Position numbers: made by a program. A DNA stretch of 64,000 nt from Myxococcota bacterium. Its GTDB lineage: Bacteria > Myxococcota_A > UBA9160 > UBA6930. This document shows, piece after piece, positions 42,001 to 48,000 of the stretch (positions are counted from its first letter, which is position 1; each line of letters begins with the position of its first letter). Where the stretch lies: NCBI GenBank assembly GCA_965223705.1, contig OZ245015.1, positions 2,368,001-2,432,000 of the forward strand. Direction: 5' to 3'.

Positions 42001-45000
42001 CGGCTTCGAGTCGATCTTCTACGCGGAACATACGCACATCCCGACGAGCCGACGCTCCCCGTTTCCGGTCGGCGGCGAGCTGCCCGAGATGTATTGGCGA
42101 TCCCACGACCAATTCGTGGCGCTCTCCATGGTTGCGGCGGTCACGAAGACGCTCAAGCTCGGCACCGGCATCACACTCGTGCCAGAACACGATCCGATCA
42201 ACCTCGCGAAGCGCGTCGCGTCGCTCGATCGGTTGTCCGGCGGGCGTGTTCTCTTCGGAATCGGCGCGGGCTGGAATGCCGAAGAAATGGAAGATCACGG
42301 CGTCGCCTTCCAAGACCGCTGGAAAGTGACGCGGGAGCGGGTTCTCGCCATGCGCGCGATCTGGACCGAAGACGAGCCCTCGTTCCACGGCGAGTTCGTG
42401 GATCTGCCCCCGATGTGGTGCTGGCCGAAACCGGTTCAGCCGGGCGGCCCGCCGGTCATTCTCGGCGCTTGGTCGAAGTGGACGCCCGCGCGAATCGCCG
42501 AGTATTGCGACGGCTGGATGCCCATCGAGGGCCAGGGCGACATCGAGAGTTCACTGCGGGCGATTCGCGCCGCCTACAAAGACGCCGGTCGCCCCGCCGA
42601 CGGACTCGATGTCACGATGCTCGCGGCCTCGAGCCCCGACCGCGGACCGGATCTACGCCGTCTTGCCCAGTGCGCCGAACAGGGAGTCGGTCGGGTTCTC
42701 CTGCCCATTCCGAACGAGCCGCGCGACGCGGTCCTCAAGGTCCTCGACAGTTATTCGGAAATTCTCGAGCGCTTCCACTAAGCGCGCTGCCGCTTCTCGA
42801 AATCCTCGACCCATTTGACCACCGAGTAATGCTGGTAGCGCAGGGCCAACTCGTGGTCGTGGAACGTGAACGTCTCGCACAGGCCTTCGGAGATCGCGGT
42901 CTGTATGCGCTCTAGCGTGTTGCAATCTTCGCGTACGGCATCGCGGAGCTCGACGATCGCGTTCTCCTGGCCGAAGCGTTGGGCGGCATTGCTCGCCGGC
43001 TGCAGGTAGCCGTGCATCTGCCACTGCACTTCGCCCGGCCCGAGCGGCCACATCGTGTGGGTGAAGAACATTCCCGGTCCGATGATCAGCACGACGTTTG
43101 GAAAGAAGACGTGGAGATCGAGGGTCCACGCGGGGTGACGCGCCGGATTCACTCCGACGGGAAGGCTCTCGATCTGCGACGCGTCGCTTCCCCCGCTCGT
43201 GACCGGTGGTCCGGCGGCGAACTGCCAGGCCAGACCTTGCACGGGAAAGGGTTTGTAGTCGGGGTTTCCGGCCAGCGTTGCCGTGCGGTGCGGATACTTC
43301 GGGTAGAAGTCGATCAGCCGCCCCGTCGGGTTGTCCGGACCGCAGATCGATTCCGCCACCGACCGTTTGTGCAGGAACGGCACGTGGTAGATCTCCGTAA
43401 AGGAGTCGATCATCAGCTTCCAGTTGGTCTTGATGCGCGCCTGGAACTCGAACTCCGCGTTCCGTTGGCCGAACTGCCAGAAGCCGGCGAGCTCTCGGCC
43501 CTGGGCCCCTAAGTAGTCGGCCAAGGACTGCTCGGGCGCAGGGTTCAGATTGATAAAGATGAACCCCTCCCAGACGTCGGTCGCCACCGGAGGTAGACCG
43601 CGCTTCTCCCGGTCGAGGTCGTAGAAAGCCTTCTGATCCGGAACACCTTGGAGCTCCCCTTCGAGGTTGTACGCCCAGCCGTGGAACGGGCACTGGAACA
43701 GGTTGCAGTTCCCCTTCTCGCGAAGCTCGACGATCGTGCCGCGATGCTGGCAGACATTGTGGAACCCGCGAACCACGCCGTCTTTTCCCCGAGCCAGGAT
43801 GATCGAGAGTGCAAACGTCGGGAGCTCTTGGGTCACGAAGTCGCCGGCTTCGGGAATCCGATCTTCGCGACCCACGCAGAGCCAGGCCTGCCGAAAGATC
43901 GCGGCGAGCTCGCGCTGGTAGAACTCTTCTCTCCAGTACACGTCCGTCGAAACCGGGCCGGTGCCGACTTCGGGATGGCGCTGGGTGAGGCCTGTCGGGC
44001 TCGTCATGACGGCTCCTGAGCTTCTAGATCCGCGAGCGGGACGGTCATTGGAAAGCGCTCGTGAGGCAATCCATCCACCACATTGGGCTGGTCGTACCAC
44101 TCGACGGCGGGACCGACCTCGGCCAAGGACAGGAGTAGCTTGAGCAGGCACTCCCAGGGCGGCGTGAGCTCGCCGAGTTTTCGTTGCGATAGATCCTCGA
44201 GTGCCTTGGGAGCGATGTCGATCATCGCCTCGTAGAAAGCGCGGATCTCTTGGATGGAGCGCGTGTGGCGCGCTGCGGTCCGCTCGCCGCTGCCGCCGAG
44301 TGCCCACACCGCGGCAAACGGCTCGAGGGTTTCGTAACCGGCGGGAAGCTCGAAACCCGCCGTCACGAGCCGGCGCTCGCTAATCCCTCATCGATCAGAC
44401 GCTTGACGACCGCGTACTGGTGGCGACAGGGAACTTCCATATCGGCGAAATGAATCTCCTTGAGGGATCCCGACATGATTCCGGCTTGGGAGCCTTCACT
44501 CGTCGCGATGTCTTCGCGAAACGCGTCGCGCAGGAGCGCAATCGATTGCTCCTGTGCGATCCGTTGTGACGGCGTCTCCGGCGGCACGAAATAGAGCGAC
44601 GCCTCCCAGCGCGTGGTCGCCGCATCGATCGGCCAGAACTCGTGGATGAAGAAGAAGCCCGCCGACGTGTCGAGTAGCCAGTTCGGGAAGATCGCGTTGA
44701 TGTCGAAGGAGTAGTAGGGATCGTCATCGGGGTTCGTGCCGGGGAGCTTCTTCGCGAGTGCGGCCTCACCTTGACTGAGGGACTCGCCGATCTGCACGGC
44801 GAAACGCTCGGAGGGATGAGGCTCGAAGTCGGGGTTGAACGAAAACGACATCGCGCGGTTCCGCTCGTACAGCTCGAGGTGATACGGGCGGCATCCCGGG
44901 TTGCGCCCGCCCGTGAAGTATTCGCCGATCGTGCCGGCGTGCACGGTCGCAACGTGGTAGCCCTCTTGGAAGGCGTCGAGAAATAGCTTCCAGTTCGCCT

Positions 45001-48000
45001 TCAAGGTGGCGCCCCAACGGCCGGCCACAGACATCGACTCGAAGGGGAAGCCTGTGAGCTTCTCGCCGATCTCCGCGAGTTGCTCTTCGAGCGTTTCGCG
45101 GGGTGTCTCGTCGAAGTTCACGAAGATGAAGTCTTTCCACGTCTCGCAGTGGACCGCATCGAGATTCAAGCGGCTCTTGTCGAGCTCGTAGAACTGAGAC
45201 TCCTCGGGGACGTCGCGGATATTTCCCTCGGTGTCGTAGACCCAACCGTGAAAGCGACAGGTGAAGTACTTACAGTTCCCCGCCCCTTCCGCGACGTTCG
45301 TGCCGCGATGCCGGCACACATTGTGGAACGCTCGAATCTCGCCATCTTTGCCGCGCACGACGATGATGCTCTTGCCGAGAATCTCGACCTTCTTGACGAA
45401 GTAGTCGCCCTTGCCCGGGACCTGGTCTGCCCGGCCCACCATGAGCCACAGACGCGAAAAAATGTGGTCGCGCTCGAGCGCGAGATGCTCCGGCGAGACA
45501 AAAGGCGCCACCGATACGGGCCCGGTCCCCAACTCGGGGTAGCGCTCGGCGTTGCGGTGGTCTTTCGACGTGAGATCGAGGGTCTGTGCGGCGCTCATGA
45601 CGGCATTCCTCCATCGACGACGCGGTAGCGCCTCGGCGCGGGAAGGATCTCAAATTTCTCGTAGGCAACCGAGTGCGGGACGTCGGGGGCCTGGTAGTAC
45701 TCGATCGCGGGAGCGATCTCCATCGTCATGAGCGCGAGCTCGAGGAGATTCGCCGCGTCTCGGGGCAGCGCGTCGAGTGTGTGCCGATCGAGTGCCCGGG
45801 CGATCTCCCTCATGCGCGGCATGGTGGCGTCGTAGAAGTCTCGGAGTTTTTCGATGGGTTGACCGACCCGGAAAGCATTGCGCTCCCGCTCGGTGCCGTG
45901 AACCCATTCTGGCACGAACCGTGCCAGCGACTCGAACCCTTCGGGAAGAACCTGACTCATCCCCACAATTTACCACCCGGGCTTACAGTTCCGGCATCTC
46001 GACATAGAGGTAGCCGTCTTCTCCGACCGTCACCGGGTAGCTCGCCACCGGGGTCACGCAGGGCGCGCCGGTGACCGCGCCCGTCCGGATGTCGAATGTT
46101 CCGTCGTGAAACGGACAGACGATGTCGTTGCCCTCGATGTCGCCTTCGGACAGGAATGCTGCCCCGTGGGTACACACGTCGTCGGTCGCGTAGAACGCCC
46201 CCCCGACCTTGTAGACCGCGACGGGTTCTCGGCCGTCGATCTCGACTTGTTTGACAGAATCGTCCGACAGTTCGCCCGCGGGAATTGTTCGCAGTAGAGC
46301 CATACCCGCAACGTATCGTAGAATCACACGAAATCATGCCGAGGAGCCCTATGCCGCGTTCTCTGCCCGAAAAGTTTGCCGAACTCGAGCGCTTCGTCCC
46401 CGAATGGGTGATCGATTCCGAAGCGGATCGATACACCTTCCGCGTGAATCGCACGATCGAGGAGCTCGACGCGTTCTACGGGGCCGTCTTCCCTCGCATC
46501 GACGACCTCGCAAACCACATCGATCAGTATCCGCTCGACGGTATGCCCAGGGACGCCGTCAATCTGCTCCGCCTGGGTCAGATGCTGATGGAGGTCTCTC
46601 CGGCGGTCGGCGTCTACCGACAGCCCGATGTTCCGAACTCGACTCCGTTTGAACGCTTCACGGTGATTTCCCCGCAGGAACCGATCCGCGTCCTCGATTG
46701 ATTGGAGAACGAATGAGCACCCAAATCGAAAACCGACCCGAAGCCCGTCTGCCCGACTGGGACAACACCAACCCCGTCAAGGAGCGCTATCCGGAAATCG
46801 ATACACCTCCGATTCCCATCGAAGCCTATGTCTCCGAAGACTTCTTCGAAGCGGAGCGCGAGAAGATCTTCAAGAAGAAATGGCTCTACGCCGGTCGCAT
46901 GGAACGGCTGCAGAAGCCCGGCGACTACTTCGTCAACACCATGGAGGTGCTCCGCACGAAGAAGGACGGGACCTACCCGTCGTTCGTGATCACCCGTGAC
47001 GATCACGGCGAAGTCCGGGCGTTCTACAACGCGTGCAAGCACCGCGGCACCAAGGTTTGCTGGGACGACTCCGAGACCTGGGAGAGCAGCAACCGCAAGT
47101 ACTTCACCTGTCGTTTCCACGGCTGGGTGTACGGAAACGACGGCAGCCTCAAACACGTTCCCGACGAGAATCAGTTCTTCGATCTCAACAAGGCGGAACG
47201 CGGCCTCACGCCGGTGCACTGCGCGGTATGGAAGGACTTCATCTTCATCAATGTCGACCCCGCTCCGAGCCAAACGCTCGAAGAGCAGCTCGGCCCGCAC
47301 GCGACGAACTTGAAGGATTTCCCGTTCGAGCGACTCCGCAAGACCGGCATCTGGACCGCGGTGATGGACTGCAACTGGAAAGTCGCGATCGACGCGTTCC
47401 AAGAGGGCTACCACGTCGCGACCGTGCACGCGGGAACCATGCCCAACGCGTTCAACGGCTCGCTGAACCCCTACTGCCGGCCCACTTCGGTGCGCGTCTA
47501 TCCCGGCGGCAACCGCTCGATCACGTTTATGGTGTCGCCCGAGTACAAACCGGACGAGCTCGAAATGTGGGTGCGCCAGCGCGGAGCGAACTGGTACGCC
47601 GCTGCCGAAGACGGTTCCACGAACGACTTCGTCGGCGTGAACCCCGAGAACGATCCCTTCTTCGCGTTCGACTGCCACGGGATCTTCCCGAATTTGCTGG
47701 TCGATCCGTTCATCGGTGGGTTCTACGGTCATGAGTTCTGGCCGATCACGGTCAACAAAACGCGCTGGATCGGAAGCATCAACTTCCTCGCCCCGCAGAA
47801 ACCGAGCGACATTCTGTCGAACGAGCACGGGAAGATCTTGCTGCGTGATGCGTTCCGCGAGGACACCGTCACCCTCGACGCGTCTCAGGAAGGGATCGAG
47901 TCCGGAGGCCTCACCGACGTCATCATGTGCGACCACGAGATGGCGCCCCGCCACCTGTACAACGCGGTGGTCGAGATGGTGAACTCGTGAGACGAGCCTC

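What a model noticed while it worked through the whole genome (the two positions that open the first line are those of the whole stretch)
42778..47990. Unnamed 115-aa helical protein family is the fixed partner of one Rieske oxygenase alpha clade (six copies)
Six copies of an all-helical ~115-residue protein with no Pfam or NCBIfam family each abut a Rieske oxygenase alpha gene (three pairs here; also g00929, g01992, g02716). Those six alphas form one clade, apart from the alphas with classic beta subunits, and the small protein is predicted to bind its alpha: a new kind of Rieske oxygenase small subunit.
Evidence so far: 6 of 6 copies adjacent to an alpha gene; 5 of 5 matches in order relatives and a Novosphingobium copy also. 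Tree of all 15 alphas: the 6 partnered ones form a clade at 100/99. No NCBIfam match; 1131 clusters at 50% identity, so widespread. Four-helix model, pLDDT 83.5. Complex g02306+g02305: score 0.90, best control 0.00, runs agree in 98% of contacts, partner pLDDT 91 or more; this mark was reached by 116 of 157 solved complexes and 2 of 215 mismatched pairs. One paper search found no description.
(Added by a program. Inside this text positions count along the whole contig: contig position 2,368,001 is position 1 of the stretch shown here. "Call 12" and the like, gene names such as g00115 and contig names such as C1 are that model's own, and its searches are not shown. The text may have been shortened before it was handed on; [...] marks where a part breaks off. 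The agent that wrote the report below was given it as the finding of a first reader that could run no searches.)

Follow-up and report, generated by a model that had tools for sequence, protein, structure and literature searches.

The report
Helical partner of Rieske oxygenases
A small, unnamed all-helical protein travels with one large branch of bacterial iron oxygenases and its sequence co-varies with one surface of the enzyme, so it is probably a new kind of subunit that replaces the usual one.

Summary
Confirmed and extended. The window holds three small-protein/Rieske-alpha pairs plus a Rieske ferredoxin; the genome holds six, and the six alphas form one clade (100/99). Reverse test: 67 of 75 GTDB loci chosen by alpha similarity alone carry the small gene (62 within 100 bp), 0 of 75 a classic beta, 18 of 75 a SnoaL gene. 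Forward test: 189 of 205 small-gene loci have an alpha within 200 bp. The family has 1,201 clusters at 50% identity, no Pfam, NCBIfam or PDB match, and occurs in 39 of 41 genomes of one Binatia family. Instead, coupling analysis of 282 natural pairs gave three inter-protein pairs at z 9.7-13.3 (controls at most 8.0), forming one patch on the alpha catalytic domain and one helical face of the partner. Binding is therefore likely (about 0.9); a stable subunit is the best reading (0.6), a chaperone or effector the rivals. 'Fixed' overstates: some alphas lack a neighbouring copy or share one. Substrates are unknown; neighbours hint at N-heterocycles. Ten paper searches found no description.

The parts
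42778..44007 (-). Rieske oxygenase alpha A, 409 aa (P0004)
   Evidence: Pfam Rieske + Ring_hydroxyl_A; ATG at 44007 overlaps the stop of small A by 4 bases
44004..44366 (-). small helical partner A, 120 aa (P0001); partner of alpha A by phylogeny
   Evidence: 46% identical to the copy at C1 940 kb, whose alpha is sister to alpha A; overlaps both flanking alphas by 4 bases
44363..45598 (-). Rieske oxygenase alpha B, 411 aa (P0005); Rieske ligands C95/H97/C114/H117, iron ligands H215/H220/D363, bridging D208; predicted partner patch 262-270 and 343-347
   Evidence: ligand roles assigned from established motif knowledge
45595..45960 (-). small helical partner B, 121 aa (P0002); helices 10-15, 24-32, 36-57, 67-89; predicted contact face 51/54/58/61 and 79/80
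   Evidence: stop overlaps alpha B start by 4 bases
45983..46303 (-). Rieske-type ferredoxin, 106 aa; likely electron carrier shared by the three oxygenases (inferred)
   Evidence: Pfam Rieske E 9e-20; best NCBIfam AndAb/HcaC ferredoxins, below cut-off
46304..46350 (.). 47-base gap between the divergent ferredoxin and small C genes
   Evidence: sequence; no consensus promoter called
46351..46701 (+). small helical partner C, 116 aa from the ATG behind GAGGAG (121 aa from 46336; P0003)
   Evidence: 47% identical to partner B, as alpha C is sister to alpha B
46713..47990 (+). Rieske oxygenase alpha C, 425 aa (P0006)
   Evidence: Pfam Rieske + Ring_hydroxyl_A; starts 11 bases after the stop of small C

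Best explanation
The small protein is a dedicated, non-catalytic small subunit of one clade of Rieske oxygenases. Shown: each alpha keeps all cluster and iron ligands; the small gene is coupled to it; the two sequences co-vary at one patch. Inferred: alphas form the usual head-to-tail trimer, electrons come from NAD(P)H through a reductase and (here) the adjacent ferredoxin, and one helical partner packs its helix 3/helix 4 hairpin on each catalytic domain, across helix 262-270 and the start of the long helix 343-375 that carries iron ligand D363. It would stabilise that part of the catalytic domain, the job the SnoaL-fold beta does in classic alpha3beta3 enzymes, with an unrelated fold. Substrates are unknown; neighbouring genes suggest N-heterocycles or amides for several subclades.
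For: 67 of 75 alpha-selected loci carry it, 62 within 100 bp; 165 of 178 and 24 of 27 small-selected loci have an alpha within 200 bp; linkage survives order flips and changing neighbours; 4-base stop/start overlaps; classic beta in 0 of 75 loci; tree distances correlate, r 0.86, 106 pairs; coupling pairs S344-D58, I347-M80, S263-T79 at z 9.6-13.3 in four settings against control maxima 6.9-7.1 (4 runs) and 5.4-8.0 (12 runs); S344-D58 ranks 1 and 3 in two disjoint halves; substitutions compensate in size or charge (347/80 F-A, L-V, I-M; 263/79 V-L, A-F; 269/51 R/K-D/E); the two alpha segments couple to each other (A267-I347 best of 520, z 5.0); no conserved Cys or His in the partner; all 5 genomes tested with an unaccompanied alpha encode the partner elsewhere; alpha plus partner alone lie between two IS21 copies on plasmid pRSMS1.
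Against: No measurement of binding or activity. Effective depth of the coupling analysis is low (184 for 496 columns), related sequences can give false couplings, one pair outside the patch (G213-T23, z 6.6-8.1) overlaps the control range, and in one half only one pair stood at the top. 8 of 75 alphas have no copy in their locus, 6 of them not explained by contig ends; tandem alphas often share one copy and some loci have two copies in a row, so 1:1 pairing is not strict. The nearest solved alphas, CntA and Stc2, work without a small subunit. The clade's support falls to 91/85 with distant members.
Confidence: 0.6

Rival explanations
1. Assembly or folding chaperone: the partner binds the catalytic domain of the nascent or apo alpha at the same patch and is released from the mature alpha3 enzyme.
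For: Explains gene coupling, co-variation, sharing of one copy by tandem alphas and alphas served in trans; nearest solved alphas are alpha3.
Against: Copy number tracks alpha number (6 and 6 here) and trees mirror each other, more than a shared catalytic chaperone needs; no Cys or His for metal delivery.
Confidence: 0.17
2. Effector or gate: the partner binds the mature enzyme near the substrate entrance and tunes activity, coupling or substrate range, without being needed for stability.
For: The patch lies on the catalytic domain, on helix 262-270 and the helix that carries D363; loops over the active site and beta subunits are known to alter specificity (PMC12445004, section 8).
Against: I had no coordinates to place the patch relative to the tunnel; the placement near the entrance is inferred from sequence position.
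Confidence: 0.12
3. A SnoaL/NTF2-fold neighbour is the true beta subunit, and the helical protein is an extra component.
For: SnoaL-type genes lie in 18 of 75 loci, 9 within 500 bp of the alpha; in L030 one follows the alpha directly with no helical gene; classic betas share this fold (established knowledge).
Against: 57 of 75 loci have none in the DNA held; none lies between or beside the three pairs here; five tested neighbours match SnoaL_4, not Ring_hydroxyl_B; SnoaL genes are common in this window anyway.
Confidence: 0.06
4. The small protein does not touch the alpha; it is a separate pathway protein that is only inherited with it.
For: Adjacent genes give mirrored trees without binding (alone cannot decide); a few copies have no alpha within 1.5 kb (4 of 178, 2 of 27); lindane plasmids carry a copy beside linC with the alpha cut off by IS6100.
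Against: It stays with the alpha while every other neighbour changes, so it is not tied to one substrate; inter-protein couplings exceed all 16 controls and cluster in one patch.
Confidence: 0.05

Closest known systems
alpha3beta3 Rieske dioxygenases (naphthalene, biphenyl, cumene, terephthalate dioxygenases, IadDE, HcaEF)
   Same: Alpha with Rieske and catalytic domains, a small cofactor-free partner encoded next door, ferredoxin nearby.
   Different: Partner is four helices with no strand of 3 or more residues and no Ring_hydroxyl_B match; alpha identity only 18-25%; predicted contact is on the catalytic domain, whereas the review names a Rieske-domain extension for beta contact.
alpha3 quaternary-amine oxygenases CntA, Stc2, GbcA
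   Same: Best sequence and fold matches of the alpha (E 2e-32, TM about 0.73; NCBIfam GbcA 113 bits against cut-off 670).
   Different: About 20% identity; listed as alpha3 without small subunit (PMC12445004 table); not the same family.
Skatole-induced cluster of Acinetobacter piscicola p38 (PMC11434297)
   Same: gene1684 alpha, gene1687 styrene-type monooxygenase, gene1688 flavin reductase, gene1690 ferredoxin match by spacing the order alpha-small-NTF2-monooxygenase-reductase-SDR-ferredoxin on plasmid locus L008; the alpha is induced by skatole and indole. The L008 alpha groups with the genome's copy at 2,838 kb.
   Different: In the passages and tables seen only the flavin monooxygenases were tested; that p38 gene1685 is this protein is my inference from gene order, not a sequence test. 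The three window alphas are in other subclades.
Rhodococcus ska/skt, Alcaligenes PicB, Sphingobium Chol11 KshA homologues
   Same: Rieske oxygenases in heterocycle or steroid catabolism.
   Different: Described with annotated beta subunits or as KshA homologues (KshA scores only E 8e-5 against alpha B). Their sequences were not compared here.

Membership tests
Rieske non-heme iron oxygenase alpha subunit | Rieske C-x-H...C-x2-H ligands | tested here: met
   C95, H97, C114, H117 invariant in 114 of 114 aligned alphas including the three window copies
Rieske non-heme iron oxygenase alpha subunit | 2-His-1-carboxylate iron site and bridging Asp | tested here: met
   H215, H220, D363 invariant, D208 in 92%; Pfam Ring_hydroxyl_A above cut-off
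Rieske non-heme iron oxygenase alpha subunit | Oxygenase activity with reductase/ferredoxin; trimer | not testable with these tools
   Ferredoxin gene adjacent; no reductase gene recognised among the window ORFs scanned next to the cluster
Classic ring-hydroxylating beta subunit (PF00866) | Profile match to Ring_hydroxyl_B | tested here: not met
   No match for the three window copies at E<=0.1
Classic ring-hydroxylating beta subunit (PF00866) | SnoaL/NTF2-like alpha+beta fold | tested here: not met
   Confident model (pLDDT 92.2) has four helices and no strand of 3 or more residues
Classic ring-hydroxylating beta subunit (PF00866) | Binds the alpha subunit in a stable hexamer | tested here: inconclusive
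   Co-variation supports contact; stability and stoichiometry not testable
CntA/GbcA/Stc2 alpha3 group | Family-level sequence match | tested here: not met
   GbcA model 94-114 bits against cut-off 670; 20% identity to CntA
Any solved fold family (small protein) | Structural match to a PDB chain | tested here: inconclusive
   Best Foldseek E 2.5, best VIA Z 4.5; a weak match does not exclude a family
Metallochaperone or redox carrier | Conserved Cys/His metal ligands | tested here: not met
   No Cys or His column above 40% in 148 sequences; conserved acids are D44, E81, E87

The most novel reading that the evidence does not exclude
A fifth Rieske oxygenase architecture (alpha3 plus three helical subunits of a fold not yet solved) that defines a large, almost unstudied branch, expanded to 10-18 copies in Binatia and oligotrophic Gammaproteobacteria, in which the helical subunit clamps the helices over the active site, is required for activity and helps set substrate range, and can be shared among paralogous alphas.
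Probability: 0.3. Interest if true: 0.82.

Novelty: new variant of a known kind. Interest (0 to 1): 0.7.

Why it matters
A 2025 review lists four oxygenase architectures (alpha3, alpha3beta3, alpha3alpha'3, alpha3alpha3; PMC12445004) and no helical small subunit. If this one is real, a branch with over a thousand partner clusters, present in Actinomycetes, sphingomonads, Immundisolibacter, Binatia and on mobile cassettes, would be misread as beta-less and would probably fail when the alpha is expressed alone. Naming the partner and its contact residues makes the branch directly testable, including candidate steps in skatole and other heterocycle or xenobiotic degradation.

Tried and rejected
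Natural alpha-partner fusion: long open frames at G039, G317, G341 are overlapping off-frames, no same-frame hit in the loci tested; search among longer proteins found none, weak evidence. Known family or fold for the partner: none in Pfam, NCBIfam, PDB sequence, Foldseek, VIA-align, ESM Atlas; absence does not show a new fold. Literature leads that did not fit: Chol11 KshA homologues (12, 13), Rhodococcus ska/skt (38-40; SkaZ, 'unknown', was not compared), PicB (86), RSMS phosphate ester papers (88, 95, 96). Ten searches found no description of the protein; subscription papers and bioRxiv supplements are outside what I could see and may hold one, most plausibly for an Acinetobacter or Burkholderia skatole cluster. 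Expression: no RNA holder listed. Promoter scan: nothing above chance. The patch enrichment (5 of top 5) uses a patch drawn after seeing the pairs and is not counted as evidence. Tree correlation is expected for linked genes and is not evidence of binding by itself.
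Full report
Observation. The window region 42778-47990 reads, on the minus strand, ferredoxin (45983-46303), small B (45595-45960), alpha B (44363-45598), small A (44004-44366), alpha A (42778-44007), and on the plus strand small C (46351-46701) and alpha C (46713-47990). Three junctions are 4-base stop/start overlaps and the fourth is an 11-base gap with a ribosome-binding motif. The genome has six copies of the small gene, 33-47% identical, each abutting an alpha, four upstream and two downstream. 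Of 15 full-length alphas the six form one clade at 100/99; two of the other nine have classic-looking betas. The alphas keep all cluster and iron ligands.

What the small protein is not. No Pfam or NCBIfam family, no PDB sequence match with one sequence or a 148-row profile, only unnamed clusters in the ESM Atlas. The model is confident (pLDDT 92.2, pTM 0.85), with helices 10-15, 24-32, 36-57 and 67-89; Foldseek and VIA-align gave nothing above background (best Z 4.5). Conserved positions are P6, W19, R27, R31, Y43, L72, E81, E87; there is no conserved Cys or His. The family is large: 1,201 clusters at 50% identity.

Partnership, tested both ways. From alpha to partner: a GTDB scan with an alpha alignment returned the 75 best loci of more than 598 candidates. 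A partner profile hit 67 of 75; for the focal alpha 62 were within 100 bp, 5 further off, 8 absent. Two of the 8 end at a contig edge; in the other six other genes follow. All 5 of those genomes that I searched encode the partner elsewhere, 1 to 18 copies. From partner to alpha: 165 of 178 distinct loci (one duplicate dropped) had an alpha within 200 bp, 6 further off, 3 at contig ends, 4 none; in a second set 24 of 27. Many of these genomes were reached through alpha hits and are kin, so the counts are not independent trials. On plasmids, 6 of 7 regions read from 19 partner matches had the alpha adjacent; of 8 regions read from 24 alpha matches 6 had the partner adjacent, one was split by IS6100, and the one distant alpha (Shinella, 27%) had an unrelated neighbour. 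In a wider tree the partnered alphas stay together at 91/85 with the unaccompanied ones nested inside. Tandem alphas sharing one copy, and two copies in a row, both occur.

Distribution in even samples: 3 of 301 genomes of the window's phylum, itself included, 10 of 151 of the class of a Nocardia genome, 12 of 151 of the family of a Novosphingobium, 3 of 251 of the order of a Paraburkholderia, and 39 of 41 of the family of a Candidatus Binatia genome, up to 10 copies; each sample includes its centre genome.

No classic beta. Of 118 flanking ORFs called at the 75 loci none matched Ring_hydroxyl_B; a profile from the genome's two betas, of limited reach, hit 0 of 75 loci in six frames. A SnoaL profile hit 18 of 75, 9 within 500 bp of the alpha; five such neighbours matched SnoaL_4. 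The neighbours otherwise vary; 19 of 62 downstream ORFs are amidohydrolases, mostly in Actinomycetota.

Evidence for contact. I paired 282 natural alpha/partner neighbours (effective number 184 at 80%) and ran mean-field direct-coupling analysis. The top inter-protein pairs (P0005-P0002 numbering) were S344-D58 (z 12.9), I347-M80 (10.3), S263-T79 (9.7), Q269-R51 (7.8), S344-A54 (7.2); two full shuffles and two swaps among related alphas peaked at 6.9-7.1. The same three pairs led in three further settings; twelve nearest-relative swaps peaked at 5.4-8.0; in two disjoint halves S344-D58 ranked first and third, while I347-M80 and S263-T79 led only one half. Substitutions compensate: F-A, L-V, I-M, W-A at 347/80; V-L, A-F, S-F at 263/79; R/K with D/E at 269/51. 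Positions 51/54/58/61 are one face of helix 3; the alpha positions lie on helix 262-270 and the start of helix 343-375, and these two segments couple to each other (A267-I347, best of 520). The depth is low and one off-patch pair (G213-T23) reaches z 8.1, so this is support, not proof. A structure predictor given alignments draws on the same signal, so the two lines are not fully independent.

How it most likely works. Shown: intact catalytic motifs, gene coupling, clade specificity, co-variation. Inferred from known Rieske enzymes: a trimer with electron transfer between subunits, fed by a ferredoxin here and by PDR/VanB-type or ferredoxin reductases at other loci. Inferred here: one helical partner per catalytic domain, bracing the helix that bears D363 and a neighbouring helix. 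I put binding at about 0.9, split into stable subunit 0.6, chaperone 0.17, effector 0.12, with 0.06 for SnoaL as the real beta and 0.05 for no contact. Substrate: unknown for the three window enzymes, which lie among flavin monooxygenases, hydantoinases and SDRs. One subclade, which includes the copy at 2,838 kb, sits with an acetamidase and SnoaL gene, and on Acinetobacter plasmids with an indole-type monooxygenase; the matching gene order in strain p38 is induced by skatole (PMC11434297, passages and tables 2-3). Other loci lie beside pyridine-ring or catechol genes.

Comparison with what is known. The alpha's nearest solved relatives are CntA and Stc2 at about 20% identity, TM about 0.73. 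PMC12445004 (passages and section 8 part 1) lists four architectures and none with a helical subunit; PMC9361823 (passages) places ferredoxin binding at the alpha/beta boundary in alpha3beta3 enzymes, which this clade must solve differently. The small protein works like a beta subunit on the best reading but is not a member of that family. Also seen and set aside: 10.1101/2021.06.24.449856 and 10.1101/2021.05.19.444901 (passages, 12, 13), PMC11957808 (passages), PMC13101512 (passages and rows of table S6, 38, 40), 10.1101/2024.12.29.630347 (part 1 of 7, 39), 10.1101/530550 (passages, 86), PMC13418517 and PMC8857453 (passages), PMC7561683 (listing only). Ten searches found no description; the library lacks most subscription papers, and I allow about one chance in four that a member has been studied there.

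Verdict. A real, widespread and apparently undescribed partner of one Rieske oxygenase clade, probably a new type of small subunit. New variant of a known kind; interest 0.7.

Noticed in passing
L134:3525-10218 (Sphingobium sp. RSMS plasmid pRSMS1) and L137-L148: A clade alpha and its partner lie alone between two IS21-family ISRsp3 copies in a tributyl-phosphate degrader; the same genes at 98-100% DNA identity, mostly behind the same IS, occur in 12 metagenome contigs. A recently mobilised cassette of unknown substrate; reagent contamination of the metagenomes is not excluded.
   Followed up: partly
L004:7101-11195 and L129:2111-9560 (lindane plasmids of Sphingobium): linC, an EthD gene and a partner copy lie between two IS6100; a clade alpha cut by IS6100 lies next door in MI1205. 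linC may have been recruited from a cluster of this oxygenase type. The same match occurs on 7 plasmids.
   Followed up: partly
L008:5321-12747 (Acinetobacter plasmid) and L003:7098-10307 (own genome, 2,838 kb): Acetamidase, alpha, partner and SnoaL gene travel together; in Acinetobacter with an indole-type monooxygenase, SDR, ferredoxin and reductase: a candidate skatole or oxindole step.
   Followed up: partly
G301 (L109-L119), G545, G549: Genomes of 2-4 Mb with 11-18 partner copies, in arrays with alpha-alpha-small and alpha-small-small-alpha orders.
   Followed up: partly
window 46304-46350: Only 47 bases separate the divergent ferredoxin and small C starts, with -10-like hexamers on both strands (TAGAAT +, TACGAT -) read by eye; the consensus scan called no promoter.
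   Followed up: partly
window 33231-60685: At least nine luciferase-like (flavin or F420) monooxygenase genes and several SnoaL-fold genes surround the cluster; hydantoinase, HpaB, TauD and two FMO-like genes lie further upstream: a long oxidative catabolism island.
   Followed up: no
window 47927-50306: Downstream of alpha C: a 608-aa Vgb-lyase-like beta-propeller with an N-terminal carboxypeptidase-regulatory domain and a CxxCH motif, followed by a PCuAC copper chaperone; a similar propeller precedes the alpha in L021.
   Followed up: no
L075:6186-6929: SnoaL_4 domain fused to CDGSH iron-sulfur fingers directly after a clade alpha.
   Followed up: no
L131:5971-11979 and L132:5977-10594: Conserved order alpha, partner, cupin, cupin, NTF2, ferredoxin, asparaginase in Paroceanicella and Azospirillum, the latter beside catechol genes; pathway unknown.
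   Followed up: no
L133:5262-8320 (Novosphingobium sp. P6W): TetR, alpha, partner, SDR on the plasmid of a strain I recall as an abscisic acid degrader (recalled, from no call).
   Followed up: no
L083: A contig labelled 'uncultured archaeon' carries an actinobacterial-type alpha (in two frames) and partner; possibly a binning error.
   Followed up: no
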